Virus record (IMG/VR): IMGVR_UViG_2974794945_000001
Span: 229,273-293,272 of that record
Source of the DNA: a virus
Lineage: Duplodnaviria; Heunggongvirae; Uroviricota; Caudoviricetes
Direction: 5' to 3' (one strand)
DNA: 64,000 bases
In this document: positions 2,164-51,430 of the stretch, one piece after another
Numbering within the stretch: position 1 is the stretch's first letter
How the letters are laid out: every line of letters begins with the position of its first letter
Program-made: the position numbers and the translations under genes
Notes under the pieces: generated by a model
What the model was told of the DNA's origin: nothing
The model's database searches: none
Seen by the model: only the letters and a program-made list of their open reading frames with translations

Positions 2164-2188
2164 ATCTGAAATCTATATTACTAACATG
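2164..2188 (+). promoter_or_regulatory. conserved promoter-like box atctgaaatCTATATTACt
   Basis: Member of recurring CTATATTAC motif family, 29 nt upstream of ATG at 2217. Confidence 0.45.
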
Positions 2189-2216
2189 TATCTACTACAC
2201 TTAAATAGGATTTGTA

Positions 2217-3140
2217 ATGGGCATTAAAAGACGGCTTCTGGAAAACCATAAAGAATGGTTATTCCGCGTAATGAATCTACATGATGTTGATTTTGCCATT
2301 GCTACCGATGAGAATGGTAAAAAGTGGGTAGCTTTTATTGAAGCCCATAACACTTATTCGGTTAGTCTACATTCAATCGATGATGGTCCACAAATTGGGC
2401 GTTGTATATTTACTGAAAATAGTGATGTCAAAAAGCACAGTTGGGAGTTTTGCACGCGAAATCCTAAACCGTCATTGAATGGGTTGTCGTTCAAACCAGA
2501 TCTAAACAGTGTAGTGGAAGATGTTATTTCATACACTGATGCAGCGCAAGATCTTGATGATAATCAAGGCATTCACATTTACACTTCACCTAATGGAACC
2601 GAATGGTATTTAACTAACGATTCTATTGAACGCGATCGTTTGAAATTGTTTCAATACATACCACATGCACGAATGTTTGGATGTGGGTATTGGTTTGATA
2701 TCAGTTTGCTGGACCAATATAACGGCATTTGGAACACCCCGGTAACAACCCCCGTCTTTGAAATTCCTCCCGCTCCTGAATCTGAAAGGCCTTACATTAC
2801 AAAAGTATCCGACAAGCCAAGTGCTTTGTTGGTACTTACAAACAAAGGCGATGGGATCAGAAAAATTAAACATCTTAACTTGACTTTAAATCTAAAGAAA
2901 GAGTTAGAGCCTGATGAAATCATGGACATTTACCCTGCGTTAAGAAGCGCGTTGCAGCGTGAATTCCCCCAAAACAAAATTGTGATTGACCTAGACCAAG
3001 TTGTCTTTGTAATACACGGTACCCGTATTACTGGTCGTAACATGCGGGCTGCACATGGCTCACGCTACTATTGTGATATACCTAAAGATCAATCGCAATT
3101 TCAATTCCAACCTAACCATTTTCCTGCTCGTTACTGCTGA
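2217..3140 (+). CDS. hypothetical protein (307 aa)
   Basis: Long ORF, same strand, downstream of promoter box. Confidence 0.6.
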   Translation: MGIKRRLLENHKEWLFRVMNLHDVDFAIATDENGKKWVAFIEAHNTYSVSLHSIDDGPQIGRCIFTENSDVKKHSWEFCTRNPKPSLNGLSFKPDLNSVVEDVISYTDAAQDLDDNQGIHIYTSPNGTEWYLTNDSIERDRLKLFQYIPHARMFGCGYWFDISLLDQYNGIWNTPVTTPVFEIPPAPESERPYITKVSDKPSALLVLTNKGDGIRKIKHLNLTLNLKKELEPDEIMDIYPALRSALQREFPQNKIVIDLDQVVFVIHGTRITGRNMRAAHGSRYYCDIPKDQSQFQFQPNHFPARYC

Positions 3141-3148
3141 GGTTTTAT

Positions 3149-4060
3149 ATGTTCAAGGCTTTACGTAATCGTTACCGTTTGACGCGTTTGTTTGAAATGG
3201 ATGCCATCAAAAACAACATCTGTTGTTTCCGTACAGATGAAGATGAATACGTTCATCTGTTTTTGGATGACAAAGGACAACGCCATGCATACAGCTCTGT
3301 AACTTTGCAACCAATTGATATAGCAACCGTTACTATTCCAGATAAAGATTGTTTCCGTTGGACCTCTTGGGATCGTAAACCATTTTCTAGTTATTACGAG
3401 CGCGGTATCAGTGCAATTAAAGTACTGAAAGCTCGGCATGCCGAAACATGGCAGGGTGTTCCATTTATCAAAGTAAATGGAAAGGTGTTGTACATTAGCC
3501 GAGGTAGCGATGGCGGCGAGTGGTTTGAACTAACCGATATTAATGGAAATGAATTTATTTTTCCTACGGTTATGTTGAACGTGCTTAATTCAAGCAATTA
3601 TATTGATCTGGATATGTACACTGCAAAAGTGGTTAACCTTTACGGCGAAGGTAATCCTGTTGAAGATTGGAAACCTATCATTGCCTGGGGTAATGAACCA
3701 ACCTCTAATCAACCAGCGTATTCTGAGTTGATTGAAATGGATGGGTTTCCAGGTATGTTAGAACTACATACCAAAGACATTGTTATTAACATCAGTGAAA
3801 TTGATAACAGCGCTACACCAATTGTAGATTTGCATCCATTTGTTAAAATCATCAAATGGAATTTGTTGGATCACAATGCACGCTGGACACTCGATGTAAG
3901 TAACATTCTTTTGCAAGTGGGTAAAAATCCAATCCTGATTCGTGTTGGTGATTTACCTACGGAAGTGCCAGGACATCGTTTCATTATGTCCAATATGGTA
4001 GATGGCAACGAAAGTCAACATATCAACTACAATGTTGACCTGCCATCAACGTATCCATGA
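3149..4060 (+). CDS. hypothetical protein (303 aa)
   Basis: Long ORF, 9-nt spacing from previous gene. Confidence 0.6.
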   Translation: MFKALRNRYRLTRLFEMDAIKNNICCFRTDEDEYVHLFLDDKGQRHAYSSVTLQPIDIATVTIPDKDCFRWTSWDRKPFSSYYERGISAIKVLKARHAETWQGVPFIKVNGKVLYISRGSDGGEWFELTDINGNEFIFPTVMLNVLNSSNYIDLDMYTAKVVNLYGEGNPVEDWKPIIAWGNEPTSNQPAYSELIEMDGFPGMLELHTKDIVINISEIDNSATPIVDLHPFVKIIKWNLLDHNARWTLDVSNILLQVGKNPILIRVGDLPTEVPGHRFIMSNMVDGNESQHINYNVDLPSTYP

Positions 4061-4076
4061 TGGATTTAAAACATTT

Positions 4077-4098
4077 AAAAGGCTATATTACAATAGTG
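4077..4098 (+). promoter_or_regulatory. promoter-like box aaaggCTATATTACaat
   Basis: CTATATTAC motif. Here it precedes a hairpin (4116-4133) rather than following one. Confidence 0.35.
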
Positions 4099-4115
4099 AT
4101 CTAGCTACCTATTTA

Positions 4116-4140
4116 GCCTCTCTTCGGAGAGGCTTTATGC
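4116..4140 (+). terminator. hairpin gcctctc-ttcg-gagaggc + tttatgcc (terminator or 5' stabilising hairpin)
   Basis: Perfect 7-bp stem with ttcg loop. Same hairpin sequence recurs at 32824 and 49178. Confidence 0.5.
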
Positions 4141-4162
4141 CCTTTAACTACAGGTATATCAA

Positions 4163-4450
4163 ATGGCTCTTCCAGCTCGCTGGACTACGTCTGTGAAAGC
4201 TACTGCTACCCTCTACTTAAATGGAGGTAAACCAGAAGTTGTTCGCAGTATTGTAAAAGACTTAAACGTTTTGTACAATACACATCTCGCTACTGATAAA
4301 GAAGCTGGACGTGCCGTAGCCGTACTAGAGAAACTCACCGACTGTGTTGGTGGGCGCTTTGATCACCACCGTAATACCAATAACCTAACTGCTGCTAAAC
4401 GCATGCAGATAGTGGAAGCACAGCTGCATAAAGCCAGGCCTCCCTACTAA
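4163..4450 (+). CDS. hypothetical protein (95 aa)
   Basis: ORF. Confidence 0.5.
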   Translation: MALPARWTTSVKATATLYLNGGKPEVVRSIVKDLNVLYNTHLATDKEAGRAVAVLEKLTDCVGGRFDHHRNTNNLTAAKRMQIVEAQLHKARPPY

Positions 4451-4495
4451 CCGTATTGGGACCTGGTAATAACTAATCATACCAGGAGGTTCCCA

Positions 4496-6803: not shown

Positions 6804-7274
6804 ATGCTTCATCCAGTAATTTCCAGAGAACATTTTGCTAAACTGAATCTACCTATTGACAACTTTACCTATTTCCCAGAAAATACTGTGGATGCGGTTT
6901 TGGTTGAAAAACTCTTGCTGCGTGAAGCCCGTTGGTTATCCCGTAATAAAGCAGGGGTACTGGTAGGTTACAATCCAGAAGAAGATATTCAAATTGGTAT
7001 TCGTTTGGCATTGAACCAAGATCAGAAAGTTTTGGACAGTGATATTTTCTGGACTAATCTGACCGGGAAAGGTAAAGACGATCATCTGGATATTTTGTTC
7101 TCAGACGCTATGACGGACATCATCAACATCACTCGTGCAACACATAGTTACCACATGCATTCAACAGCACCACGTGGTTGGGCTGCTTGCTTTGGTCCTA
7201 ATGGGGAAGTAGAAGCGATTGGTCGAAACTATGTGATTGGTGCCACCAACATTGAAAGAAGGTTTGCTGAATAA
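6804..7274 (+). CDS. hypothetical protein (156 aa)
   Basis: ORF. Confidence 0.55.
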   Translation: MLHPVISREHFAKLNLPIDNFTYFPENTVDAVLVEKLLLREARWLSRNKAGVLVGYNPEEDIQIGIRLALNQDQKVLDSDIFWTNLTGKGKDDHLDILFSDAMTDIINITRATHSYHMHSTAPRGWAACFGPNGEVEAIGRNYVIGATNIERRFAE

Positions 7275-7276
7275 CA

Positions 7277-7720
7277 ATGTCAACTATTTTATACGCTTTG
7301 GATAATCGTTTTCTAGAAACAATTAAAACCATGCTGGCTAAGCCAATGGATAAAGAATATTGGACTGGGCCATTAGTTAAAAATTCAGCTTTGGTTCGAT
7401 TGGTCCAGAAAGCCGAACGTATTGTTACTGAACAAGATTTGCTTACCCCTAATATTGAAGTACCTAAAGGCAAATTCATTTTGGGGATTGGTGCCGAATG
7501 GAACGATGTTAATGGGGTAATGCATCGAAAGAACAGCGATCTGTTCTTTGATCATGAGTTGTTTGATAACCCCATGGCTACATTGGTAAAACAATTGCAC
7601 GGCTTTGGGGATGCCATAATCCCAGTGGAATGTGTACCTGATCAAACCACAGCTTATGCCTGGACCTTGAGTAGCTATGAAGGCTACACTGTTCTTCGTA
7701 TCTGCGGACAATTTAAATAA
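7277..7720 (+). CDS. hypothetical protein (147 aa)
   Basis: ORF, 3-nt spacing. Confidence 0.55.
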   Translation: MSTILYALDNRFLETIKTMLAKPMDKEYWTGPLVKNSALVRLVQKAERIVTEQDLLTPNIEVPKGKFILGIGAEWNDVNGVMHRKNSDLFFDHELFDNPMATLVKQLHGFGDAIIPVECVPDQTTAYAWTLSSYEGYTVLRICGQFK

Positions 7721-7947
7721 TGCATGACTCTCCTATGGAGGGTCTTATGCCCCTGTGAGATAGACCGTGTTAATAGACAACCCACCTGTAAATTGGTTAC
7801 ATGCAGTAGGTACCCTGTTGTTGGCACTCAGTTATTTGTTATGCCACGGCACTTTTGGTAAGAACAAAGCATTAGTTAACTTAGGGATTCTAGTATTCAT
7901 GCTAGGGGTTGCCTCTATTACCGCAGCTGAACTTAAGTAACTTAATA

Positions 7948-7974
7948 AATCTCAGATCTATATTACTATCTTGA
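7948..7974 (+). promoter_or_regulatory. promoter-like box aatctcagatCTATATTACtatcttga
   Basis: 27-nt sequence identical to 27719..27745; 29 nt upstream of ATG 8003. Confidence 0.5.
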
Positions 7975-8002
7975 ATTCAAGACCATTCCTTAGGAGTATT
8001 AC

Positions 8003-8749
8003 ATGCAACAAGTTCAAACAGATACCAACATGTGCCGCGTTATGATGAATGCAATGATCCAATGGATGATTGATACCAACATGGCTCAACGTATTCACGT
8101 AGTAACTGACGCAACCATGTTTGACGTGGGTATCTTGAAAAACAATGTAAACGGTTTGTATCAAATCGTACTGAACATTGCCGCATCGGCTGTTCGTAAT
8201 TTCTCATACAACGAACATACCTTCAGTTTTAACTGCTCCAATAATGGTGTTGACGTTCCTCTGAATGTCCCATATGAAGCAGTGTTGGGTTTCCTGATTC
8301 CTACCGCTGAAGGTTACACTTCTTTCTTCCCTATTCCAAACATGGAACGGGAATTGCTTGCTCTTCAAAAGACGCAAAACATGTTGCAAGAACTGGATCA
8401 ATTGGATCTGGGTGATGATGCTCCGTCAATGGCGCAGTTGAATGAACTCATGCGTGGTGTAGGGGTTAATGAACCGGCCAAACCAGTTGAGTCTTCCCCA
8501 TACGCGGTACATGGTCTTAACACAAATAGCGGTGAAGACGACACTAACACCCACGCTAATTCTTTGCCCACCAATGTTGAACTCATGCGTCGTAAACCAT
8601 TCACTGAACGTCCGGTGGCAAAAGTTGAAAAAGAAGCCCCACGACCATTGTTGGATTTTGGTCCAGTTGGCGGTGTAGTGTTTCAATCTAAACGTCCACG
8701 TCGTAAAGACGGTCCGAACCTGACCCTTATCCAAGGCGGAAAGAAATGA
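8003..8749 (+). CDS. hypothetical protein (248 aa)
   Basis: ORF after promoter box. Confidence 0.6.
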   Translation: MQQVQTDTNMCRVMMNAMIQWMIDTNMAQRIHVVTDATMFDVGILKNNVNGLYQIVLNIAASAVRNFSYNEHTFSFNCSNNGVDVPLNVPYEAVLGFLIPTAEGYTSFFPIPNMERELLALQKTQNMLQELDQLDLGDDAPSMAQLNELMRGVGVNEPAKPVESSPYAVHGLNTNSGEDDTNTHANSLPTNVELMRRKPFTERPVAKVEKEAPRPLLDFGPVGGVVFQSKRPRRKDGPNLTLIQGGKK

Positions 8750-9468
8750 ATTTGTGCGAACTACGTGCACACGTCATGCGGCGTGATTCTACACGCATGG
8801 CGGCAATCTTCAATGAACTAAAAGAAGATTCACAGTTTAAACAATTTGATATTTACGAGATGAATGACTTTTTGTTTCGTGAACTGGTATGGGCACCCGA
8901 AGAAGTGTCGGTTGATTCCAGAGAACTATATCAAATCAACATCCGAACTATCCCCATGGTTCGTTACGGCAATGGTAATCTGTGTATCCTTCCTGAAGAT
9001 GCACAAACATTCTGGCCAAGTCTGAATGACATTACTAACCCCCATACACCTATTCATGACATGGTTCATGCTGCATTGGTCAACCATGTTACAGGTTGGG
9101 ACCTGCGCATCGATGCGCCAGCCATGCGAATGCCGGTTCCTTTCACCTACGATCAACTGCGTCAGAATTTTGATGGCATTGTTGTAGGTGCGGAAAAAGT
9201 CATGTATTTGGATACCGAACTGAAAGTAGCCAAACTGACCAAGCACTTAACTATTACTGTGGTTTTGTTGATTACACCAAACGTGCTGTACGCATTGGGA
9301 AATCAGAAATACGGCGGAGAACGTACTGGTTTCTATACTTGCGACAATTCACTAAAAACAGAAGTGGAAGATAGCGAACTACCATTCGATCAGAATGAAA
9401 GTTTCTATGCGCACCTTACCAAAAACAGTTTTGATGCAACTGTAATGTTGCTACCGGGGCTTGAGTAA
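8746..9468 (+). CDS. hypothetical protein (240 aa)
   Basis: ORF; ATGA overlap. Confidence 0.6.
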   Translation: MNLCELRAHVMRRDSTRMAAIFNELKEDSQFKQFDIYEMNDFLFRELVWAPEEVSVDSRELYQINIRTIPMVRYGNGNLCILPEDAQTFWPSLNDITNPHTPIHDMVHAALVNHVTGWDLRIDAPAMRMPVPFTYDQLRQNFDGIVVGAEKVMYLDTELKVAKLTKHLTITVVLLITPNVLYALGNQKYGGERTGFYTCDNSLKTEVEDSELPFDQNESFYAHLTKNSFDATVMLLPGLE

Positions 9469-9471
9469 AAC

Positions 9472-10836
9472 ATGACTTTTCAAGATGTGTTGGGCTTTTA
9501 TCATGAAACGCTTAACTTGTTGTCTCATGGGGATTCAACCGTAAAAGGTTTCCTTGTGTTAGGTATCATGGGTGCACTGGGCTGGATTGGTCGTACATGG
9601 CCAGCTATGTTCATTGCATTCATTCGACGTAACATCATTGCGTCTATGACATTCACTCGTGCTGGGTCCTATTCAATGGACCTACAAAACTACGCAGAAT
9701 TCATGCGTTGGTTCAGTGAATCTAAATGGGCAAAGTATGATCGCAATCGTCGAGTAACATTTGACCGCGATAATCCTTATTTTGGACCAGGAGCAGGTTT
9801 TCACTGGTTCATCCATAATGGCCGCTACTTCTGGTTTCATGTGGTGCGTTTGAATTCCTCGGGTACAGATATCGAGAAAGAAGAATTCACCCTTTATACC
9901 TTCGGTCGTGATACTGCTCCGCTGGAAGCAATTGTAGAAGAGTTCCGTATTAAACCATGCAAAAGTTCTATACGTATCTTTGCACCTAATGATGGTGATT
10001 GGAAACGTCAAGGCAAATTGCGTTTGGATGCGGATGAAACTCTCATCATTGACCCGGACGTGGAACAAGAGTTCTTTGGTTCACTGGACTGGTACATTAA
10101 CAATGAGGCATGGTATCGTAAACGTGGTCGTGCTTACAAACACACGGTCATCCTGCACGGCCCACCTGGTACCGGTAAAACGTCTCTGATCAAGCGTGCA
10201 GCGCGTAAGTATAAACGTGACTTGCATTTCTTGAATTTGTCAACACACGGTCGTTCTCTGGCAGAACTGGTAGCTAAATTGCAACCGGGTGACATTCTCT
10301 GCATTGAAGACTTTGATGATGTGCGTTCTTTGCATCGTCGAGTAGAAACCAAAACGGTTGGTGTAACCGATGGTGATGATAGCAAAAGCCCTGGTGCTTT
10401 GCTGATGGATTGTGACATTGCACTGAGCACGTTCTTGAACGTATTGCAAGGTGTTGTGGAACTTGATGACATCATCATTATCATGACTACTAACCACCTG
10501 GAAAAGATTGACCCAGCTGTTTACCGTCGTTCTCGCGTAGACAAATTGATCGAAGTCCTGCCTCTTAAAGATGCAGAGATTAAACGCTACATCGATCAGA
10601 TGTATGATAATCCTACTTACGATCGTAATGTAATGTATCCAGATGTACCGGCTTCTACTTTGTCCGGTATATTCCAGGAACACCCAGACGATCATCTGGC
10701 TTTTATTAATAAGCTAGATTCCTTGGATGATGCGTACATCGCTAACAACTACGCATTACAACCAGAACCTAAACGGCCACCAGTGATTAAAAAGGAACCT
10801 GCTCCTGCATTGGAGGCTGTTGCTCTATCGGAATAG
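9472..10836 (+). CDS. membrane-anchored AAA+ ATPase, Bcs1-like
   Basis: N-terminal TM segment GFLVLGIMGALGWIG. Walker A HGPPGTGKTS. Bcs1-type Walker B ILCIEDFDD (E-D order). Sensor-1 IIMTTN. Arg finger region PAVYRRSRVD. Confidence 0.8.
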   Translation: MTFQDVLGFYHETLNLLSHGDSTVKGFLVLGIMGALGWIGRTWPAMFIAFIRRNIIASMTFTRAGSYSMDLQNYAEFMRWFSESKWAKYDRNRRVTFDRDNPYFGPGAGFHWFIHNGRYFWFHVVRLNSSGTDIEKEEFTLYTFGRDTAPLEAIVEEFRIKPCKSSIRIFAPNDGDWKRQGKLRLDADETLIIDPDVEQEFFGSLDWYINNEAWYRKRGRAYKHTVILHGPPGTGKTSLIKRAARKYKRDLHFLNLSTHGRSLAELVAKLQPGDILCIEDFDDVRSLHRRVETKTVGVTDGDDSKSPGALLMDCDIALSTFLNVLQGVVELDDIIIIMTTNHLEKIDPAVYRRSRVDKLIEVLPLKDAEIKRYIDQMYDNPTYDRNVMYPDVPASTLSGIFQEHPDDHLAFINKLDSLDDAYIANNYALQPEPKRPPVIKKEPAPALEAVALSE

Positions 10837-10841
10837 AATAC

Positions 10842-11183
10842 ATGGAACAGCTCAAACAAAAAGAATTCGACGTCTACCCAGATGAGATGACCTATCACAA
10901 AGATCGATTCCTGCACCCTAGCCGGAAATGTGAACTGGTCCGTTTTGTTGGTGCATTCCATTCGGATCATGTGCTTACAACCGAAGTCGAAGTTATTTGT
11001 CGTGGGAATGAACCGGGCAAGGTAGCACGGTTCTTGGTTCGTTACGGTGATCAAGAAGCTGATTTGATCATGGATTTGGAAACTTGCCGTTACTCTGCAT
11101 CTGTTAACATCAAAACTAAACTAGTCGATGTGATCCTTGTATTCCGCGCAGAATATCGGGAGGCACCAAAGGAAGCAGTATGA
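10842..11183 (+). CDS. hypothetical protein (113 aa)
   Basis: ORF. Confidence 0.5.
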   Translation: MEQLKQKEFDVYPDEMTYHKDRFLHPSRKCELVRFVGAFHSDHVLTTEVEVICRGNEPGKVARFLVRYGDQEADLIMDLETCRYSASVNIKTKLVDVILVFRAEYREAPKEAV

Positions 11184-12124
11184 TTAAAATCGAAGCTACA
11201 ATACCAACAGGTTATGGCAGTACATCAACTCGTTCGGAAGTAAAGATGGGTAAGATGCCTGGTGGTGAACTTCACCCCACAATCCCACCACACCTTGCCT
11301 GCTATCCCGATTACAAACTAATCGCAGATACACGTAGTGCTGAAGACATCATGGCGATCTTGTTGACTGTTGATGCCCTGCGGCGACAATGTGCTACCAA
11401 GAATCCCAGAGTCTCGTTGGAAATTGGTTACGTTCCTTACGCCCGGCAGGATCGGGTTTGTAATCCAGGGGAATCATTGAGCATTGCTGTTTTTGCTGGA
11501 TTGATTAACTCGTTGAATCTTGACGAAGTAATCATTGTTGATCCACACAGTGATGTTACACCTGCATTGATTAACAACGTTACAATTGTTACTCAGACCG
11601 ATGTGTTGAAACAAACACTGATCCGTGAGCATTGTGCTATTTATTATCGGGATGTAGCCATTGATCCAAAAGAATGGATTCTGGTTGCTCCTGATGCGGG
11701 TGCGGTTAAAAAGACCGAAGCTCTGGTAAAAGAGTTTGGTTTTAAAGGGATTGTTTATGCAAGTAAATTGCGTGAACTTTCTACGGGCAAAATTGTTAAG
11801 ACCTCGTTGGACCGTGTTGTCTACGATGGCACCACTCAACCACATGAATCATTGGCTGACCAGAAAGTGTTGATTGTTGATGACATTTGTGATGGTGGTC
11901 GTACATTCCTGGAATTGGCTAAAGTCATCCAGCCTTACGAACCCAAGCAACTGGATCTCTTTGTCACCCACGGGATTTTCTCTCAGGGTCAAAAAGAACT
12001 TTGTAAACATTTCAACCGCGTAATGTCGTCAAACACATATCGCATGGACGCCATCACTGATTTTGATAATCTTGAAATCAATGATCTCCTGGCACTTACC
12101 GAAATTCGTTTTCCCTACCTGTAA
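11180..12124 (+). CDS. ribose-phosphate pyrophosphokinase family protein (Prs-like; candidate ADP-ribose pyrophosphokinase, Adps)
   Basis: DALRRQCATK..IGYVPYARQDR matches Prs N-domain. PRPP-binding loop VLIVDDICDGGRT. 314 aa. Confidence 0.8.
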   Translation: MIKIEATIPTGYGSTSTRSEVKMGKMPGGELHPTIPPHLACYPDYKLIADTRSAEDIMAILLTVDALRRQCATKNPRVSLEIGYVPYARQDRVCNPGESLSIAVFAGLINSLNLDEVIIVDPHSDVTPALINNVTIVTQTDVLKQTLIREHCAIYYRDVAIDPKEWILVAPDAGAVKKTEALVKEFGFKGIVYASKLRELSTGKIVKTSLDRVVYDGTTQPHESLADQKVLIVDDICDGGRTFLELAKVIQPYEPKQLDLFVTHGIFSQGQKELCKHFNRVMSSNTYRMDAITDFDNLEINDLLALTEIRFPYL

Positions 12125-12136
12125 ATAGGAGCTTCA

Positions 12137-13966
12137 ATGAACGCACTCAATGCAGCAACAGCAACCGATTTTTACAAACCTGGTCACGGTCCATTGTACC
12201 CAGCGGGTACTACCCGTAAGTACTCGAACTTCACCCCACGTTCGGCAAAGAACTTTATTCGTTCTAAAAGCTGCTCATCGTTCTACGACAACAAAGTCGT
12301 AAACTTTGGTCTGTACGGCAGCTGGCAAGAACTGGTTGCTTTGTGGGATCGCACGTTCTTCCAGGTTTCCAAAGAGAAAGCCGTCAAAGCCATCAAGCGT
12401 CGTTTTGATAATGCTTGCGGCCCAGACGTTATCTCGGTTGCCCAAATTGCTGCGCTGCATGATGTAGGCTTCCTGCCTGTCACCGTGCTGTCCATCGAAG
12501 AAGGTAATCGTGTTAATGTTGGTATCCCACTGTGGGTTATCTATAACTCGGAAGAATACCCAGAGCACTACTGGCTGGTTAACTACCTGGAAACCGTAAC
12601 CAGTTCTTACAACTGGCAATCCATCACCAATGCCACCATTGCTTACGAATATCGTCGAGTAATGGAACACTGGGCTGAAAAGACTTGCGATAACAATCTG
12701 CACGTCAAGATCCAGGGTCATGATTTCTCGTTCCGTGGGATGCCTGGTCCAGAAGCTGCCGCTCGTTCAAACTCTGGTCACTTGGTTTCGTTCATTGGTA
12801 CTGACACTATCCCAGCAATCGACTACGTGGAAGAATATTACCACGCTGATAGCGATAAAGAAATTCTGGGTGTATCGGTTACTGCAACAGAGCACGCCGT
12901 GGCAACCGCCAACATCCTGACCATGTTCAAGCACCGCTTCGATGCTGTATGGGATGCTAACCACGGGGACATGGACATTGTTGGTCCATTGCTGGATAAA
13001 CTCAAGCTTGAGTGTGAGCGTGATTACATCCGTCAAATCATCACCGAAAAAGTAAACAAGGGCATTATCTCCCTGGTTTGCGATTCGTTCGATTTCTGGG
13101 GCGTCATTGCAGAAGTACTTCCATCACTGCGTACTGAAATTGAAGCTCGGATCAAGAATGAAATTGGTCTGGCTAAAGTTGTAGTGCGTCCTGATTCCGG
13201 TGATCCTGTTAAAGTCATCACTGGTTTTAAACTGGTTGAGTACAACACTGCAAAAGAATTCGATGATGCATTGTATAACCTCGGTTGGGAAGCAGTCAAC
13301 GGCGAAGCTGTCCGGGTAGGTGACAAGTATTACGAACTGCGTAACCACGATGCTCCAAATGCATTCCAGGCTCAGTCAACTTACGAAGACTTCCTGGGTC
13401 GTGAAATGTCTCGCGCAGAAGCTATCGGTGCCATTGATAGCCTCTACGAATCGTTTGGTGGACATGTAAACGGAAAGGGCTACAAAGTCCTGAATGAATA
13501 CATTGGCTTGATCTACGGTGATTCTATTACTGTAGAACGTGCTGAACAAATCTTTGAGCGCCTGGAAGAAAAAGGTTACGCTTCTTCTAACGTTGTTCTG
13601 GGTATTGGTTCGTTCACTTATCAATTCAACACTCGTGATACTTTTGGCATGGCTATGAAAGCCACCGCGTGTGAAGTTAACGCCGAACTGATTGAACTGT
13701 ACAAAGATCCAAAAACTGCTGCTTCCAAGAAATCTGCTAAAGGTTTCCTGCGCGTAGTGCGTGATGCTGCTGGTAACTATACACTGGAACAAGAAGTAGA
13801 AATGGACTGGAAAGATCTGTTCTACGGTTCGGGTGAATTGAAACCACTGTGGCACAACGGTAAGTTCCAGCGCGCTGAGTTCTTCCGTGATGCCCGTGAT
13901 CGTTTGGACCGTACATTTCTGCCTGCAGATACTGCTGCGGTAAATGATGGTTTTGAAGTAGCCTAA
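12137..13966 (+). CDS. nadV: nicotinamide phosphoribosyltransferase family protein (NadV/NAMPT-like; candidate Namat), with about 100-aa extra length
   Basis: NAMPT-family length and motifs (GTDTIPAIDY, GIGSFTYQ). Immediately downstream of the Prs-like gene. Confidence 0.75.
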   Translation: MNALNAATATDFYKPGHGPLYPAGTTRKYSNFTPRSAKNFIRSKSCSSFYDNKVVNFGLYGSWQELVALWDRTFFQVSKEKAVKAIKRRFDNACGPDVISVAQIAALHDVGFLPVTVLSIEEGNRVNVGIPLWVIYNSEEYPEHYWLVNYLETVTSSYNWQSITNATIAYEYRRVMEHWAEKTCDNNLHVKIQGHDFSFRGMPGPEAAARSNSGHLVSFIGTDTIPAIDYVEEYYHADSDKEILGVSVTATEHAVATANILTMFKHRFDAVWDANHGDMDIVGPLLDKLKLECERDYIRQIITEKVNKGIISLVCDSFDFWGVIAEVLPSLRTEIEARIKNEIGLAKVVVRPDSGDPVKVITGFKLVEYNTAKEFDDALYNLGWEAVNGEAVRVGDKYYELRNHDAPNAFQAQSTYEDFLGREMSRAEAIGAIDSLYESFGGHVNGKGYKVLNEYIGLIYGDSITVERAEQIFERLEEKGYASSNVVLGIGSFTYQFNTRDTFGMAMKATACEVNAELIELYKDPKTAASKKSAKGFLRVVRDAAGNYTLEQEVEMDWKDLFYGSGELKPLWHNGKFQRAEFFRDARDRLDRTFLPADTAAVNDGFEVA

Positions 13967-13972
13967 TTGGTT

Positions 13973-14008
13973 GGGTCCCTTCGGGGACCCTTCCTATTTT
14001 CTTTTTTG
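13973..14008 (+). terminator. rho-independent terminator
   Basis: gggtccc-ttcg-gggaccc followed by T-rich run. Confidence 0.65.
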
Positions 14009-14024
14009 TTGTGAGGTATAGTAA

Positions 14025-14609
14025 ATGAGTTGCTGCAATGATTGTAAAAAAGATGAAGGTGAACGAGTGGAGTTTGACGTAGGTATTAACTTCAATACCA
14101 ATAACTCGTATCATCCAGATTTGATTGGAAAAAAGATCAACTTCGTCAGCGGCTTTCTAGTAACAGCTGAAGGGGCAATGCCTAAGGGTGGGTTTCAAAT
14201 ACAGTTCCACAGTTATGGTGCCCGTAAACACATCAACATTTATCGGAACCGCTTACCGTTTGATGAACTGATGGCTACTATTCAGTTTAATGAAACCACA
14301 GGTCATTTTGTGGTACAGCAATTGACTCGGATAGAGTTTGAAAAAGTTCAATTGATTTTTACCAAAGAGCATGTTGAAGAAGTACAGTATCAAGAACTGG
14401 CTCTAGGTGTATACCGTGTACCTAACTTGGATGCAGGTATTCAACTTAGTGGACACTTGGATATCGATGATTACACTTTAACACAACTTCAAATTGGTCT
14501 GCGTAGAATTAATAGCTGGCCAGCGCTGGTATTGCACCATAGTCAAGAACTCTGTGTATTGTTTACTCCCGAACACCCTACTTGGAAAAATGACGCGTTG
14601 TGGCAATAG
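14025..14609 (+). CDS. hypothetical protein (194 aa), N-terminal CC..C cluster
   Basis: ORF. Confidence 0.55.
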   Translation: MSCCNDCKKDEGERVEFDVGINFNTNNSYHPDLIGKKINFVSGFLVTAEGAMPKGGFQIQFHSYGARKHINIYRNRLPFDELMATIQFNETTGHFVVQQLTRIEFEKVQLIFTKEHVEEVQYQELALGVYRVPNLDAGIQLSGHLDIDDYTLTQLQIGLRRINSWPALVLHHSQELCVLFTPEHPTWKNDALWQ

Positions 14610-14632
14610 TGTGTAATTAACGGGAGCATTCA

Positions 14633-16054: not shown

Positions 16055-16061
16055 CGTCATA

Positions 16062-16090
16062 AAGCCTCCCTGCTAGGGAGGCTTTTATAT
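16062..16090 (+). terminator. terminator hairpin agcctccctgctagggaggct + ttttatatt
   Basis: 8-bp stem; weak T run. Confidence 0.45.
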
Positions 16091-16099
16091 TGGAAGATT

Positions 16100-16303
16100 A
16101 TGATCACATTAGTTGTTGGATGCATTTTACTAGCAATGGGTATCATTGGTGGTGGATTCCTATTATGGGCGTGCATTACCAATTACATCGAGAAAGATGA
16201 TCAGCTCAATTATTGTTTCGGTGCACTGATTAGTTACCTAGTGCTACTTATGGTAATGGTTGCTATTGCCATGGCTGAAAAACAATACCTGATGAACAAC
16301 TGA
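16100..16303 (+). CDS. small hydrophobic membrane protein (67 aa, two TM)
   Basis: ORF dominated by hydrophobic stretches. Confidence 0.5.
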   Translation: MITLVVGCILLAMGIIGGGFLLWACITNYIEKDDQLNYCFGALISYLVLLMVMVAIAMAEKQYLMNN

Positions 16304-16310
16304 GGTTAAC

Positions 16311-17835: not shown

Positions 17836-17855
17836 GATAATACTCGTATGGTTTA

Positions 17856-19244: not shown

Positions 19245-19249
19245 CATGG

Positions 19250-19274
19250 GTAGGCCTTCGGGCCTGCTTTTTGT
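19250..19274 (+). terminator. rho-independent terminator
   Basis: gtaggcc-ttcg-ggcctgc + tttttgt; identical hairpin at 43885. Confidence 0.7.
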
Positions 19275-19296
19275 CAACTAAACCAAGAAGTGAAAT

Positions 19297-19611: not shown

Positions 19612-19624
19612 AAAGAGTTATTAC

Positions 19625-21668: not shown

Positions 21669-21710
21669 GGCTACCCTTCGGGGTAGCCTTATGTTTATTT
21701 CTTTTTTATT
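21669..21710 (+). terminator. rho-independent terminator
   Basis: ggctaccc-ttcg-gggtagcc + T-rich run; same hairpin at 52743. Confidence 0.7.
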
Positions 21711-21723
21711 TAAAACGATTTCA

Positions 21724-21745
21724 AAGCTATATTACATTTAGGATA
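21724..21745 (+). promoter_or_regulatory. promoter-like box aaagCTATATTACattt
   Basis: CTATATTAC motif 35 nt upstream of ATG 21770. Confidence 0.45.
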
Positions 21746-27666: not shown

Positions 27667-27670
27667 AGAT

Positions 27671-27708
27671 GGCCTCCCTTCGGGGAGGCTTCCCTTATTT
27701 CTTTTTTA
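27671..27708 (+). terminator. rho-independent terminator
   Basis: ggcctccc-ttcg-gggaggct + T-rich tail. Confidence 0.7.
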
Positions 27709-27718
27709 TGTTCCAAAT

Positions 27719-27745
27719 AATCTCAGATCTATATTACTATCTTGA
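27719..27745 (+). promoter_or_regulatory. promoter-like box (27-nt exact copy of 7948..7974)
   Basis: aatctcagatCTATATTACtatcttga. Confidence 0.5.
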
Positions 27746-27800
27746 TGTAGTCACCAAAAAGAATAATAACTCAGGAGTATCTGTTATAGGAGCAAAAGCA

Positions 27801-35687: not shown

Positions 35688-35695
35688 GTCATATT

Positions 35696-35736
35696 GCCTC
35701 TCCCCTAAGGAGAGGCATTTATGCCTTTTCTTTTTA
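35696..35736 (+). terminator. rho-independent terminator
   Basis: gcctctcccc-taa-ggagaggc + tttatgccttttcttttt. Confidence 0.65.
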
Positions 35737-35752
35737 TACATTTAAACAATTT

Positions 35753-35775
35753 AAAAGCCTATATTACTTATTGGA
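35753..35775 (+). promoter_or_regulatory. promoter-like box aaagcCTATATTACttatt
   Basis: CTATATTAC motif. Confidence 0.4.
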
Positions 35776-36166
35776 ATATACTCAATTAGGTTGTAGTCCC
35801 ATGCCTAGAAAAGAACAGAAGTATTCTGCAAGTGCTGCTAACCTTAGCTGCTTTGCTAACTCGCTCTCAATCTCTGTTCGAGAGTTCCATGTTTTCTTTG
35901 GTAAGGATTCTCCCCTGGCTGAATTATTTGCCAGTCATCCTGACCGAGACATTGTAAAGGTTGCTCTAGAAAAGCGCGACCTAACCTGGGTGTATCGAGT
36001 GATTTGGATTGATGCTAGTGAGGACTCTAGTCCTTATGATGTTGATGACCCTATTCGTTTCTTTACCGCTCAGCGCTTCAACCAGCTCATCTTTGATACT
36101 TGTGAGATCAAGCATAACGCATCCATTAATTTCATGGGTGGTGTTGTGATTGATTACAAGCATTAA
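35771..36166 (+). CDS. hypothetical protein (start likely ATG 35801)
   Basis: ORF; the track start overlaps the promoter box. Confidence 0.45.
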   Translation: MEYTQLGCSPMPRKEQKYSASAANLSCFANSLSISVREFHVFFGKDSPLAELFASHPDRDIVKVALEKRDLTWVYRVIWIDASEDSSPYDVDDPIRFFTAQRFNQLIFDTCEIKHNASINFMGGVVIDYKH

Positions 36167-40709: not shown

Positions 40710-40735
40710 GAGTCCCTTCGGGGACTCGTTTATGT
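40710..40735 (+). terminator. terminator hairpin gagtccc-ttcg-gggactc + gtttatgtt
   Basis: 7-bp stem. Confidence 0.55.
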
Positions 40736-40744
40736 TCCAAAAAA

Positions 40745-40768
40745 TCACAGCTCTATATCACTTAGAAG
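40745..40768 (+). promoter_or_regulatory. promoter-like box variant cacagCTCTATATCACtt
   Basis: Variant of CTATATTAC, 40 nt upstream of ATG 40808. Confidence 0.35.
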
Positions 40769-40807
40769 TATAGACTGCCTGCTATACACAACAAGGGGAT
40801 TTAAAAA

Positions 40808-46804: not shown

Positions 46805-46833
46805 GCAGCCCTACGGGGCTGCTTTATTTTGTT
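46805..46833 (+). terminator. rho-independent terminator
   Basis: gcagccc-tac-ggggctgc + tttattttgttt. Confidence 0.65.
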
Positions 46834-46845: not shown

Positions 46846-47124
46846 GTGAAAAGTAAGGCAACCTGTTTCTTTGCAGCTTGTTTTGTTATTGGCTTTACAG
46901 CATTAGCTATTAATGCTTGGAACACATACTACCCAGAATACGTTCCGGGTTTGCCACACGCAGAAGAAGAACATCAAGAAAAAGTAATTGCCATGATTCA
47001 AGGGCGCGTCAGTTATAAAGCATCCTGCATTATGGGCGAACGAGAACTTGATGTCATTTACGGTAAGATGGTGTATGATTGCGAAAAGATTGCTCAACAA
47101 GTCTACGCATATCCAGATGTTTGA
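46846..47124 (+). CDS. secreted/membrane-anchored protein (92 aa, GTG start)
   Basis: Hydrophobic N-terminus KATCFFAACFVIGFTALAINA; ORF track start 46711 lies inside the upstream gene and terminator. Confidence 0.45.
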   Translation: MKSKATCFFAACFVIGFTALAINAWNTYYPEYVPGLPHAEEEHQEKVIAMIQGRVSYKASCIMGERELDVIYGKMVYDCEKIAQQVYAYPDV

Positions 47125-47127
47125 ATA

Positions 47128-47154
47128 CATCTGAAATCTATATCATCTCTTTGA
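47128..47154 (+). promoter_or_regulatory. promoter-like box variant catctgaaatCTATATCATct
   Basis: Close copy of the 2164 box, 22 nt upstream of GTG 47176. Confidence 0.4.
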
Positions 47155-47175
47155 CACTTACATTAGGGGTAGAAA

Positions 47176-49925: not shown

Positions 49926-50207
49926 GTGGAAATCCCAACTCTAGATGACCGGATACAAAACAAGTACGCCGATCAGATTGAAGAATATAGCACTATCTTC
50001 AATAAAGAAATATTGAATGGCCATCAACACACCAGCGATAGTGGTTATCCATATTTTGAATGCGTCATCAATGACGGTGAATGGATACACAGTGAATTGT
50101 TTGACTATCTAGTTAAGCTTTATTACGAAGCTTTTTGGATTGTTGAACAATATGAAGAAAAAGAAGGTTATTGCATTCGTATCTTTCGACGTAAAGTTGA
50201 GAATTAA
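49926..50207 (+). CDS. hypothetical protein (93 aa, GTG start)
   Basis: ORF. Confidence 0.45.
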   Translation: MEIPTLDDRIQNKYADQIEEYSTIFNKEILNGHQHTSDSGYPYFECVINDGEWIHSELFDYLVKLYYEAFWIVEQYEEKEGYCIRIFRRKVEN

Positions 50208-50231
50208 ATACTTGATGTGTAATAGTATAAT

Positions 50232-50300
50232 GACGAACTGGAGTTCCGTGGAACATCTCCCAACTTAGTACCTACCCGTCGGTATGTTGGTGCCACGTGA
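50232..50300 (+). other. long imperfect hairpin (ctggagttccgtgg ... ccacgtgaactccacc)
   Basis: About 13-bp terminal arms pair across a 40-nt interior; sits in an intergenic spacer before the terminator at 50319. Confidence 0.35.
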
Positions 50301-50318
50301 ACTCCACCTATTTTTAGA

Positions 50319-50345
50319 GCCAGCCTTCGGGTTGGCTTTATGCCG
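50319..50345 (+). terminator. terminator hairpin agccagcc-ttcg-ggttggct + ttatgcc
   Basis: 8-bp stem with G-U pairs. Confidence 0.5.
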
Positions 50346-50528
50346 TTAGGACAAAATATGTCAATTAATCAATTCTGTTTAGTGGCCATTATTTACATGT
50401 TGGTTACTACTGGGCTTGAACTTCGTTACGATTTGCATTTCGATATGACCAGCTGGAAATACTGGGTTGGTAACTGTTTGCTCTGGGCAAGTATCTATCT
50501 CATTGATCGAGTAATCAAAACAAAATGA
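50340..50528 (+). CDS. small membrane protein (62 aa)
   Basis: Hydrophobic. Confidence 0.45.
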   Translation: MPLGQNMSINQFCLVAIIYMLVTTGLELRYDLHFDMTSWKYWVGNCLLWASIYLIDRVIKTK

Positions 50529-51256
50529 CTTACATTGTTTATGATGGGAAAACACTCATTGCCGACAAGTTAATGTCGCAAGGTGTTGGGTCATATGCCC
50601 TGGGGCGTAAACCTAGGACAGCCGGTGGGTTTGTCGTTAACCGGCCTGGTAAAAAAGTTGATGTTTATTACAACGATACTGAAAAAGTTATCTTCCTGCG
50701 TAAGGGTCTGTATGAAGGAAAAGAAATAAAGTGTTTAGCTATGGCTGGACAAATTGTTAACCTAGGTGAGCTTATAAGTTACCTAGAGCAAGGTCACGAT
50801 CTGGACCATTATTTGGATTGTGAAGCAGCGGTCTATCCGGTTAAAGAAAGACGTAATTTTGGCCCTGGTAACAGCATTACTGTTGTTATGAAAGATGGAG
50901 CTGGTTATAATTTCCATCATGTCAGTGATGGCATTGATCGAGTTATGTCGTCTAAGGGCTTGATCCATGGCGGGGCTGGTGTGAGTTGGGTGAATGGCAT
51001 TAACCCACATCTATCGACCCCCCTAACAGCCCTGGAAGCTTTTGTGATAGGTTCTCATTACTCTTCTGTAGTTAGTGAAGAGTTTGATTACTATTGCTCG
51101 GTTACCAATGAGTACAAAAAGAACCAGAAGCTTAGTATGCGTCAACGTGAATCCATACTGGCAAGAGTTCAATCCCGCTTTGCATTAAATGGGGAAGTTG
51201 CTAACGAAAATTACGTTAACCTTCCTTTTACTAACATTATCAAAAAGGCAGATTAA
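50525..51256 (+). CDS. hypothetical protein (243 aa)
   Basis: ORF; ATGA overlap. Confidence 0.55.
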   Translation: MTYIVYDGKTLIADKLMSQGVGSYALGRKPRTAGGFVVNRPGKKVDVYYNDTEKVIFLRKGLYEGKEIKCLAMAGQIVNLGELISYLEQGHDLDHYLDCEAAVYPVKERRNFGPGNSITVVMKDGAGYNFHHVSDGIDRVMSSKGLIHGGAGVSWVNGINPHLSTPLTALEAFVIGSHYSSVVSEEFDYYCSVTNEYKKNQKLSMRQRESILARVQSRFALNGEVANENYVNLPFTNIIKKAD

Positions 51257-51261
51257 GGCCT

Positions 51262-51402
51262 ATGAATAATCCTTTATTGGACAGGATGCATCGTCGACAG
51301 AAAGCACATCGGCTCGACACCCTACAACGGTTTGGAATGCTTGCTTTTATAGCAGCAGTTGTCGTTATAAGTATTATCGAATTGTTTAAGCCTGTACTCT
51401 AA
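51262..51402 (+). CDS. candidate small membrane protein (46 aa)
   Basis: MNNPLLDRMHRRQKAHRLDTLQRFGMLAFIAAVVVISIIELFKPVL; C-terminal TM; below the ORF-track cutoff. Confidence 0.35.
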   Translation: MNNPLLDRMHRRQKAHRLDTLQRFGMLAFIAAVVVISIIELFKPVL

Positions 51403-51407
51403 AAAAT

Positions 51408-51430
51408 TATAGGCCTATATTACAACCCTG
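51408..51430 (+). promoter_or_regulatory. promoter-like box ttataggCCTATATTACaacc
   Basis: CTATATTAC motif, 36 nt upstream of ATG 51466. Confidence 0.4.

What the first reader, a model, noticed from the sequence alone, without database searches (positions are those of the whole stretch)
2164..51430. Recurring CTATATTAC promoter-like box, usually placed right after a terminator hairpin
Canonical copies are at 2164, 4077, 7948, 21724, 27719, 35753 and 51408; variants CTATATCAC/CTATATCAT are at 40745 and 47128. Core consensus is (a)tCTATATTAC(t). Each lies 22-55 nt upstream of the first start codon of a gene cassette. In most cases it lies 10-35 nt downstream of a GC-rich ttcg hairpin plus T run. 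The flanks are also conserved (aatctcAGATCTATATTACTatcttga). There is no consistent sigma70 -35 at 17-bp spacing. The box is therefore more consistent with a phage-specific promoter class, recognised by a phage sigma-like factor, a modified RNAP or a phage RNAP, than with host housekeeping promoters. A single good TTGACA-N17-TAAACT promoter exists at 22733.
Basis: seen in the sequence. Interest (0 to 1): 0.55.

Follow-up and report, generated by a model that had tools for sequence, protein, structure and literature searches.

The report
phiKZ-type early promoters in jumbo phage Psa21
The repeated CTATATTAC box is real. It is the known early-gene promoter of phiKZ-like giant phages, which by analogy is read by an RNA polymerase carried in the virus particle, so this is a correct but ordinary finding in a phage where it had not been written up.

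Summary
The window is Pseudomonas phage Psa21, a 305-kb phiKZ-like, nucleus-forming jumbo phage (genome positions 229273-293272).

- **The boxes are real.** All nine reported boxes exist. There are seven CTATATTAC (0.55 expected by chance), one CTATATCAC and one CTATATCAT, all on the + strand.
- **The box is the core of a larger element.** It spans about 37 nt: ATTnaAAanAATyTnAgatC-TATATTAC-tAnnnTG. A G lies exactly 7 nt after the box in 9 of 9 window sites and 32 of 35 genome sites.
- **Genome-wide pattern.** The genome has 35 such sites, all on the + strand and all upstream of + strand genes. The next-best match scores far lower.
- **It matches the published phiKZ promoter.** The core is letter-for-letter the published phiKZ promoter TATATTAC. 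A weight matrix built from Psa21 picks out 32 + strand sites in phiKZ, where the literature reports 28-32 early promoters.
- **The polymerase is present.** Psa21 encodes orthologues of all four phiKZ virion RNA polymerase subunits. The sites sit ahead of the nuclear shell gene and the non-virion polymerase operons in both phages.
- **Terminators.** A terminator hairpin lies 25-41 nt upstream at 5 of 9 window sites and 20 of 35 genome sites.

Verdict: these are early promoters, almost certainly read by the virion polymerase. They are new instances of a known kind. No transcript data for Psa21 were available.

The parts
2154..2190 (+). Early promoter 1, flank type A. Box CTATATTAC at 2173-2181. 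Predicted start-site G at 2188. A 29-nt leader runs to the gp287 ATG at 2217.
   Evidence: A syntenic box is present in phage D6.
2119..2138 (+). Terminator hairpin GCTCTCCCTTCGGGGAGAGC followed by a T run. It ends 34 nt before box 1 and closes the ligase (gp285-286) unit.
4064..4100 (+). Early promoter 2, flank type B (GATTTAAAACATTTAAAAGGC-TATATTAC-AATAGTG). Box at 4083-4091. Predicted start site at 4098. A 65-nt leader runs to the gp289 ATG at 4163.
   Evidence: A syntenic type B box is present in D6.
4115..4134 (+). Terminator-type hairpin followed by TTATGCCC, lying inside the leader of promoter 2. It is a possible attenuator, or the source of a roughly 40-45 nt early RNA.
   Evidence: -18 kcal/mol, z = -2.7. 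Premature termination in 5'UTRs is reported for phiKZ and 201phi2-1.
7939..7975 (+). Early promoter 3, type A (AATCTCAGATC-TATATTAC-TATCTTG). Box at 7958-7966. Predicted start site at 7973. A 30-nt leader runs to the gp299 ATG at 8003. It heads a unit of about 13.7 kb that includes the FtsH-like, PRPP synthetase, NAMPT, thymidylate synthase and RNA ligase genes.
   Evidence: A syntenic box is present in D6.
21669..21688 (+). Terminator hairpin GGCTACCCTTCGGGGTAGCC followed by TTATGTTTATTT. It ends 38 nt before box 4.
21708..21744 (+). Early promoter 4, type B. Box at 21727-21735. Predicted start site at 21742. A 28-nt leader runs to the gp320 ATG at 21770.
27671..27690 (+). Terminator hairpin GGCCTCCCTTCGGGGAGGCT. 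It ends 38 nt before box 5 and lies inside the mis-annotated 5' end of gp334.
27710..27746 (+). Early promoter 5, type A. Box at 27729-27737. Predicted start site at 27744. A 57-nt leader runs to the corrected gp334 start, ATG 27801.
   Evidence: The D6 orthologue has the same box and leader, and its homology to gp334 begins at residue M45.
35695..35717 (+). Terminator hairpin TGCCTCTCCCCTAAGGAGAGGCA followed by TTTATGCC. It ends 41 nt before box 6.
35740..35776 (+). Early promoter 6, type B. Box at 35759-35767. Predicted start site at 35774. A 27-nt leader runs to the likely gp354 start, ATG 35801. The annotated TTG at 35771 lies upstream of the predicted start site.
40710..40727 (+). Terminator hairpin GAGTCCCTTCGGGGACTC followed by GTTTATGTTCC. 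It ends 25 nt before box 7.
40734..40770 (+). Early promoter 7, variant box CTATATCAC at 40753-40761. Predicted start site at 40768. A 40-nt leader runs to the gp366 ATG at 40808.
47119..47155 (+). Early promoter 8, variant box CTATATCAT at 47138-47146, type A flank. Predicted start site at 47153. A 23-nt leader runs to the gp383 GTG at 47176.
51396..51432 (+). Early promoter 9. Box at 51415-51423. Predicted start site at 51430. A 36-nt leader runs to the gp391 ATG at 51466. It is the last + strand unit before the convergent - strand block.

Best explanation
The boxes are the -10-like cores of phiKZ-type early promoters of jumbo phage Psa21.

The full element is about 37 nt: ATTnaAAanAATyTnAgatC-TATATTAC-tAnnnTG. 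On infection the virion's multisubunit RNA polymerase (Psa21 gp087, gp205, gp244 and gp245, orthologues of phiKZ gp80, gp149, gp178 and gp180) enters the cell with the DNA. It binds these elements without host sigma factor and starts transcription at the conserved G, 7 nt after the box.

The nine window sites divide the + strand gene block gp287-gp393 into nine early units of 1.3-13.8 kb. The leaders are 23-65 nt long. Roughly half of the units are insulated from the previous one by a phiKZ-style intrinsic terminator 25-41 nt upstream. Elsewhere in the genome the same promoters drive the nuclear shell gene and the operons for the second (non-virion) polymerase, which then takes over middle and late transcription.

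Shown here: the sequence anatomy, the genome-wide distribution, identity with the published phiKZ/201phi2-1 motif, conservation across phages, and the presence of the polymerase genes.

For: - **Source.** The window is 100% identical to Psa21, a phiKZ-like phage with nuclear shell and PhuZ genes.
- **Enrichment and strand.** 7 exact boxes against 0.55 expected. Genome-wide, CTATATTAC occurs 30 times on the + strand and never on the - strand. 29 of the 30 lie in spacers upstream of + strand genes.
- **Sharp class boundary.** The extended motif has invariant positions and a G at N6+1 in 32 of 35 sites. Leave-one-out scores are 17.9-41.6 bits; the next best genome hit scores 5.5 bits.
- **Cross-phage detection.** The Psa21 matrix finds 32 sites in phiKZ, all on the + strand. 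The literature reports 28-32 phiKZ early promoters.
- **Published motif.** PMC7058600 Table 2 gives the phiKZ promoter as TATATTAC and the 201phi2-1 promoter as ...TTTRARR_BTATATTACDWHDGTG.
- **Start-site geometry.** The AR9 early promoter is AAATATATATTAT-N6-G(+1). In phiKZ and phiR1-37 the start site lies 6 nt downstream of the element.
- **Conserved positions.** Matching promoters precede the nuclear shell gene (Psa21 gp056 / PHIKZ054, which has an early-motif primary start site mapped by dRNA-seq) and the non-virion polymerase beta operon. Five of five boxes in the first 28 kb of the window recur at syntenic positions in phage D6, although the DNA barely aligns.
- **Polymerase genes.** Psa21 has all four virion and five non-virion polymerase subunit orthologues, at 55-67% identity.
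- **Restricted distribution.** Both flank types retrieve almost only phiKZ-like jumbo phages out of 50,697 phage records.
Against: - No transcript data for Psa21 were available, so the start sites, the early timing and the identity of the polymerase all rest on homology.
- No accessible paper reports in vitro promoter recognition by a phiKZ-type virion polymerase, and its specificity determinant is unknown.
- One exact CTATATTAC (genome position 27714, outside the window) lies inside a gene without the conserved flanks. The 9-mer alone is therefore not sufficient.
- In 201phi2-1 only 6 early promoters were detected experimentally, so not every motif instance need be active.
Confidence: 0.88

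Rival explanations
1. These are host-type promoters. TATATT or TATTAC acts as a sigma-70 -10 hexamer, and the P. syringae polymerase starts transcription 7 nt downstream.
For: TATATT matches TATAAT at 5 of 6 positions. The spacing from the box to the conserved G fits -10-to-start geometry.
Against: - There is no TTGACA-like element at 16-18 bp upstream; the conserved upstream positions read ATTnaAA...AATyT.
- With the G as +1, position -7 is C in 31 of 35 sites, where sigma-70 needs T.
- Conservation is far tighter than in sigma-70 promoters (35 sites at 17.9 bits or more, nothing between 5.5 and 17.9 bits).
- Sigma-70-like sites are not enriched (33 found, 44.1 expected).
- The same motif is the early promoter of phiKZ, whose infection is insensitive to rifampicin.
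Confidence: 0.04
2. The boxes are promoters for the newly synthesised non-virion polymerase (middle or late class), not for the virion enzyme.
For: Psa21 also encodes the five non-virion polymerase subunits, and no timing data exist for Psa21.
Against: - The published non-virion polymerase motifs differ. The late motif is TATG overlapping the start site. The middle motif is an A-rich/TACT element centred near -22 to -24.
- The boxes precede the non-virion polymerase operons themselves (gp070-071, gp075-076, gp171-173), so they cannot depend on that enzyme.
- None precedes the structural-gene operons or the - strand tRNA block.
Confidence: 0.05
3. The boxes are a non-transcriptional repeat, for example a recombination or homing target, or a mobile terminator-plus-box cassette spread by duplication.
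For: Some terminator-promoter modules are almost identical over about 75 nt, for example genome positions 127687 and 207115. Many of the downstream genes are fast-evolving accessory genes; only 6 of 35 have phiKZ homologues.
Against: - Orientation is strictly one way, and the distance to start codons is fixed, with leaders of 23-65 nt in the window.
- Conservation stops about 10 nt after the box and about 20 nt before it.
- The motif is retained at orthologous core genes across genera.
Confidence: 0.03

Closest known systems
phiKZ early promoters (28-32 sites, AT-rich element, core TATATTAC), attributed to the virion RNA polymerase gp80/gp149/gp178/gp180
   Same: - Identical 8-nt core.
- The same two flank flavours (...GAGATC-TATATTAC-TA and ...TTTAAACAG-TATATTAC-AA).
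- The same TG about 6-7 nt downstream.
- A similar site count (35 against 32) and the same single-strand distribution.
- The same positions ahead of the nuclear shell gene and the non-virion polymerase operons.
- Frequent terminator-then-promoter arrangement.
   Different: - Psa21 has an invariant C immediately before the core (35 of 35). In phiKZ this position is C, G, T or A.
- The type A flank reads AATCTCAGATC in Psa21 and AATTTGAGATC in phiKZ.
- The host and genus differ (Tepukevirus, P. syringae).
- The Psa21 sites have no experimental support.
201phi2-1 early promoter (TTAWTAVAA_HYWTTTRARR_BTATATTACDWHDGTG)
   Same: It is almost a degenerate description of the Psa21 type B element, including the B (non-A) base before TATATTAC and the downstream GTG. 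It is conserved in the -10, -20 and -30 regions.
   Different: Only six early promoters were detected by ONT-cappable-seq in 201phi2-1. Psa21 has 35 sequence-defined sites.
Bacillus phage AR9 early promoters (AAATATATATTAT-N6-G+1), attributed to the virion polymerase
   Same: The TATATTAY core is followed by N6 and a start-site G. Expression is early and insensitive to chloramphenicol, and the phage has the same two-polymerase strategy.
   Different: AR9 is a distant phage with uracil-containing DNA. The last base of the core is T rather than C, and the upstream flank differs.
phiKZ/201phi2-1 conserved intrinsic terminator (BCCYCCCCHWWDGGGRRGGBYTTATKYYGT)
   Same: The Psa21 hairpins share the architecture: a GC stem of 7-9 bp, usually a tetraloop (TTCG is commonest), then (T)TTATGYC.
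   Different: The stem sequences differ. Only one window site (49178) matches the phiKZ pattern within 3 mismatches.

Membership tests
phiKZ-type virion-polymerase early promoter | A highly conserved AT-rich element of about 10 nt with core TATATTAC (or TATATTAT) | tested here: met
.
phiKZ-type virion-polymerase early promoter | Conserved start-site nucleotide about 6 nt downstream of the element (G in AR9) | tested here: met
   At the sequence level only. There is a G at N6+1 in 9 of 9 window sites and 32 of 35 genome sites. Actual 5' ends were not mapped.
phiKZ-type virion-polymerase early promoter | Additional conserved positions around -20 and -30 | tested here: met
   A at -14 in 35 of 35 sites, T at -17 in 32 of 35, A at -4 in 35 of 35, T at -8 in 32 of 35 (positions counted from the first T of the core). 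See for the published description.
phiKZ-type virion-polymerase early promoter | Located upstream of operons on the strand that carries the early genes, including the non-virion polymerase and nuclear shell genes | tested here: met
   35 of 35 sites are on the + strand, in spacers ahead of + strand genes. They precede gp056 (shell), gp070-071, gp075-076 and gp171-173.
phiKZ-type virion-polymerase early promoter | The phage encodes a multisubunit virion RNA polymerase | tested here: met
   Orthologues of phiKZ gp80, gp149, gp178 and gp180 at 58-63% identity. Their presence in Psa21 particles was not tested.
phiKZ-type virion-polymerase early promoter | A matrix built from these sites recognises the experimentally defined promoter set of the type phage | tested here: met
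   32 phiKZ hits, all on the + strand, against 2-3 in shuffled sequence. These include the site ahead of PHIKZ054, which has a mapped early primary start site.
phiKZ-type virion-polymerase early promoter | Transcripts appear immediately after infection and are resistant to rifampicin and chloramphenicol | not testable with these tools
   This needs infected-cell RNA. It is known for phiKZ and AR9 only.
Bacterial sigma-70 promoter | A -35 TTGACA-like hexamer 16-18 bp upstream of the -10 hexamer | tested here: not met
   There is no such consensus in the alignment. Sigma-70-like sites are below the shuffle expectation.
Bacterial sigma-70 promoter | Near-invariant T at -7 of the -10 hexamer | tested here: not met
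   With the G as +1, position -7 is C in 31 of 35 sites.
phiKZ-type intrinsic terminator | GC-rich stem-loop followed by a YTTATKYYGT tail | tested here: inconclusive
   The architecture and the TTATG tail are shared (43 + strand and 34 - strand hairpin+TTAT sites genome-wide). The exact phiKZ IUPAC motif matches only once in the window at 3 mismatches or fewer.

The most novel reading that the evidence does not exclude
The early promoters fall into two flank types that recur in Psa21, D6 and phiKZ.

- Type A: AAAAATCTCAGATC-TATATTAC-TA.
- Type B: ATTTAAAACATTTAAAAGGC-TATATTAC-AA.

In Psa21 the flank type co-varies with the base after the box (Fisher p = 5e-4). The weaker TATATCAT variant is retained at orthologous promoters in Psa21 and phiKZ. 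Type A heads the core take-over operons (nuclear shell and non-virion polymerase). Type B mostly heads small accessory genes.

These could be two functionally distinct early sub-classes, differing in strength, timing or an auxiliary injected factor, rather than drift around a single consensus. I found no description of such sub-classes in the papers I could read.
Probability: 0.2. Interest if true: 0.45.

Novelty: new member of a known kind. Interest (0 to 1): 0.2.

Why it matters
The result gives Psa21, a candidate biocontrol phage for kiwifruit canker, a sequence-level map of its early transcription units. There are 35 promoters genome-wide and 9 in this window. It also corrects two gene starts and adds one missed gene.

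It extends the phiKZ early-promoter motif to the genus Tepukevirus. The motif is much better conserved than the genes it drives, which fits co-evolution with a conserved virion polymerase. It does not reveal a new mechanism.

The promoters could be useful as phage-specific, host-independent expression signals.

Tried and rejected
- **Primary phiKZ paper.** Ceyssens et al. 2014 (PMC4178840) is not held, and the two phiKZ transcriptome papers have no supplements held. I therefore took the phiKZ motif from the phiKZ genome itself and from PMC7058600 Table 2.
- **phiKZ terminator pattern.** Searching the window with the exact IUPAC pattern gave one hit at 3 mismatches. Only the architecture is conserved, not the stem sequence.
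- **One-mismatch variants.** Variants of box-N6-G gave only chance-level extra hits (17 found, 12.5 expected). A low-threshold matrix scan found nothing between 5.5 and 17.9 bits.
- **Positional conservation through first-gene orthology.** Only 6 of 35 first genes have a phiKZ homologue, and 2 of those have a phiKZ promoter upstream. Synteny with the closer relative D6 was more informative.
- **Rfam.** At gathering threshold it found only the four tRNAs.
- **Rejected readings.** Sigma-70 promoter, non-virion polymerase promoter and non-transcriptional repeat; see the rival explanations.
- **T4-type late promoter.** TATAAATA was considered from memory and dropped without a test, because the sequence differs and the phage belongs to the phiKZ group.

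Full report

Yes. CTATATTAC occurs seven times in the 64-kb window. All copies are on the + strand, at 2173, 4083, 7958, 21727, 27729, 35759 and 51415. Dinucleotide-preserving shuffles give 0.55 on average, and none of 100 reach seven. Relaxing the pattern to CTATATYAY adds 40753 (CTATATCAC) and 47138 (CTATATCAT), again on the + strand only. One-mismatch variants add only chance-level hits. A weight-matrix scan finds no further site in the window.

**2. Where the window comes from**

The window is 100% identical to Pseudomonas phage Psa21 (MK552327 / NC_062581), genome positions 229273-293272. Psa21 is a 305,260-bp phiKZ-like jumbo phage of P. syringae pv. actinidiae, genus Tepukevirus. Its annotation includes a nuclear shell protein, PhuZ tubulin and several 'RNA polymerase beta' fragments.

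**3. Anatomy of the element**

Genome-wide, CTATATTAC occurs 30 times on the + strand and never on the - strand. Checked against the annotation tables, 29 of these lie in spacers just upstream of + strand genes. One, at genome position 27714, is inside a gene and lacks the conserved flanks. Adding the C/T variants that carry the same flanks gives 35 sites.

Their alignment shows an element of about 37 nt: ATTnaAAanAATyTnAgatC-TATATTAC-tAnnnTGnA. Counting the first T of the core as position 1:

- C at 0, T1, A2, T3, A4, T5 and A7 are invariant. T6 holds in 30 of 35 sites and C8 in 31 of 35.
- A at -4 and A at -14 are invariant.
- T at -8 and T at -17 hold in 32 of 35 sites.
- G at position 15, exactly six bases after the core, holds in 32 of 35 sites and in all nine window sites.

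Leave-one-out matrix scores are 17.9-41.6 bits. The next best position on either strand of the genome scores 5.5 bits. The class is therefore sharply bounded.

If the G is the start site, the window leaders are 23-65 nt long and each ends at a start codon preceded by a ribosome-binding-like sequence.

**4. Terminators**

A GC-rich hairpin ends 25-41 nt upstream of the box at 19 of 35 sites, and one more lies 60 nt upstream. That is 20 of 35 genome-wide and 5 of 9 in the window, against 6.5% of random positions. The hairpins have 7-9 bp stems, and the commonest loop is the tetraloop TTCG. Most are followed by (T)TTATGYC. This resembles the conserved phiKZ/201phi2-1 terminator tail YTTATKYYGT. 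The phiKZ stem sequence itself is not conserved.

So 'usually right after a terminator' holds for a little over half of the sites. At 4083 the hairpin (4115-4134) lies downstream of the box, inside the leader.

**5. What it is**

Several lines of evidence tie the box to the phiKZ early promoter.

- **Published motif.** The review of jumbo-phage polymerases states that every jumbo phage encoding its own polymerases has a conserved AT-rich motif of about 10 nt, centred near -10, upstream of early operons. Wherever tested, this motif is the early promoter attributed to the virion polymerase (PMC7598289). AR9 early promoters read AAATATATATTAT-N6-G(+1). In phiKZ and phiR1-37 the start site lies 6 nt downstream of the element (PMC5312081). 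PMC7058600 Table 2 prints the phiKZ promoter as TATATTAC and the 201phi2-1 promoter as TTAWTAVAA_HYWTTTRARR_BTATATTACDWHDGTG. The first is the box itself. The second is nearly a degenerate description of the Psa21 element.
- **phiKZ genome.** I fetched the phiKZ genome. The same core with the same flanks lies upstream of PHIKZ005, 006, 010, 031, 036, 053, 054 and others.
- **Cross-detection.** The Psa21-derived matrix picks out 32 phiKZ sites, all on the + strand, against 2-3 in shuffled sequence. The literature reports 28 to 32 phiKZ early promoters.
- **Conserved positions.** Matching promoters precede the nuclear shell gene (Psa21 gp056 / PHIKZ054) and the non-virion polymerase beta operon (gp075 / PHIKZ071). 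PHIKZ054 has a dRNA-seq primary start site associated with the early motif. By operon position, the gp068 and gp121-123 equivalents match too.
- **Closer relative D6.** All five boxes in the first 28 kb of the window recur at syntenic positions. Megablast could align only 2% of a 13-kb test stretch (window 7000-20000) between the two phages.
- **Restricted distribution.** Short queries carrying either flank type retrieve almost exclusively phiKZ-like jumbo phages out of 50,697 phage records.
- **Polymerase genes.** Psa21 has orthologues of all four phiKZ virion polymerase subunits (58-63% identity) and all five non-virion subunits (55-67% identity).

**6. Mechanism**

The best-supported reading runs as follows. 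The virion polymerase is injected with the DNA. It recognises these elements without host sigma factor and initiates at the conserved G. It transcribes the early units, which include the nuclear shell gene and the non-virion polymerase operons. The non-virion polymerase then transcribes the middle and late genes.

In the window, the nine promoters divide the + strand block gp287-gp393 into nine units. The largest runs from 7958 to 21688 and carries FtsH-like, PRPP synthetase, NAMPT, thymidylate synthase and RNA ligase genes.

The sequence anatomy, the distribution and the homology are shown here. The identity of the reading enzyme, the start site and the early timing are inferred from phiKZ, 201phi2-1 and AR9. 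How the virion polymerase recognises its promoter is still unknown.

**7. Rivals**

- **Host sigma-70 promoter.** It fails on four counts. There is no -35 element. The base at -7 is C rather than T. Conservation is too tight. Sigma-70-like sites are below chance (33 found, 44.1 expected). The TTGACA-N17-TAAACT site at 22734 exists but is one of nine equally good matches in that 20-kb stretch.
- **Non-virion polymerase promoter.** This is unlikely, because the published middle and late motifs differ and the boxes drive the non-virion polymerase genes themselves.
- **Non-transcriptional repeat.** This does not explain the fixed orientation and the fixed distance to start codons.

**8. Novelty and verdict**

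The element belongs to a class described for phiKZ and characterised by RNA-seq in several relatives. I found no paper describing it in Psa21, so these are new instances of a known kind. Interest is low (0.2).

The most novel reading not excluded is that the two flank types shared by Psa21, D6 and phiKZ are functionally distinct early sub-classes.

Noticed in passing
window 27669-27801: The annotated start of gp334 (ATG 27669) would put a terminator hairpin and promoter 5 inside the coding sequence. Homology to the phage D6 orthologue begins at residue M45, which is ATG 27801. The D6 gene is annotated downstream of its own box. The true start is probably 27801.
   Followed up: yes
window 35771-35801: The annotated start of gp354 (TTG 35771) lies 3 nt after box 6 and upstream of the predicted start site at 35774. 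ATG 35801 is the likely start.
   Followed up: partly
window 25649-25927 (+): An unannotated 92-aa ORF fills the annotation gap between gp329 and gp330. It has a 91-aa annotated homologue at the syntenic position in phage D6 (34% identity, E = 5e-17). It is a missed gene, probably encoding a small membrane protein.
   Followed up: yes
window 4098-4140 (+): Promoter 2 is followed after about 17 nt by a terminator-type hairpin (4115-4134, then TTATGCCC), which lies before the gp289 start at 4163. This could produce a short early RNA or act as an attenuator. Premature termination in 5'UTRs is reported for phiKZ and 201phi2-1.
   Followed up: partly
whole Psa21 genome; window sites 2173, 7958, 27729, 47138 (type A) and 4083, 21727, 35759 (type B): There are two discrete upstream flank types: A (AATCTCAGATC) and B (TTTAAAAGGC). 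Both also occur in phiKZ and D6. In Psa21 the type co-varies with the base after the box (Fisher p = 5e-4); in phiKZ it does not (p = 0.41). Type A heads the nuclear shell and non-virion polymerase operons.
   Followed up: partly
Psa21 genome 40046 and 58199; phiKZ 44922 and 63063 (outside the window): The off-consensus variant TATATCAT is kept at orthologous promoters in both phages: the gene upstream of the nuclear shell gene, and the non-virion polymerase beta operon. This suggests selection for tuned, weaker promoters.
   Followed up: no
window 52743-52762: A perfect GC hairpin (GGCTACCCTTTGGGGTAGCC) has TTAT-type tails on both strands. It sits exactly where the + strand early block meets the convergent - strand block, so it is a likely bidirectional terminator. 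Similar two-strand hairpins lie at 21669-21688 and 46805-46822.
   Followed up: no
window 52780-64000 (- strand): The - strand block has no early box on either strand. It carries an RtcB-type 'tRNA splicing ligase', four tRNAs (Leu-TAG, Leu-TAA, Ser-GCT, Trp-CCA), an HNH endonuclease between the two tRNA-Leu genes and a polysaccharide lyase. It presumably uses middle or late promoters, as reported for the tRNA regions of phiKZ and 201phi2-1. Spacers of 400-700 bp at 57563-57949 and 61127-61851 carry no annotation.
   Followed up: no
window 22734-22762: The sigma-70-like TTGACA-N17-TAAACT site between gp322 and gp323 is present. It is one of nine 10/12 matches in the 20-40 kb stretch, where such sites are fewer than in shuffled sequence.
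   Followed up: yes
window 9472-16054: The long early unit from promoter 3 carries an NAD+ salvage pair (PRPP synthetase and nicotinamide phosphoribosyltransferase), along with an FtsH-like protein and thymidylate synthase. The same arrangement is present in phage D6.
   Followed up: no
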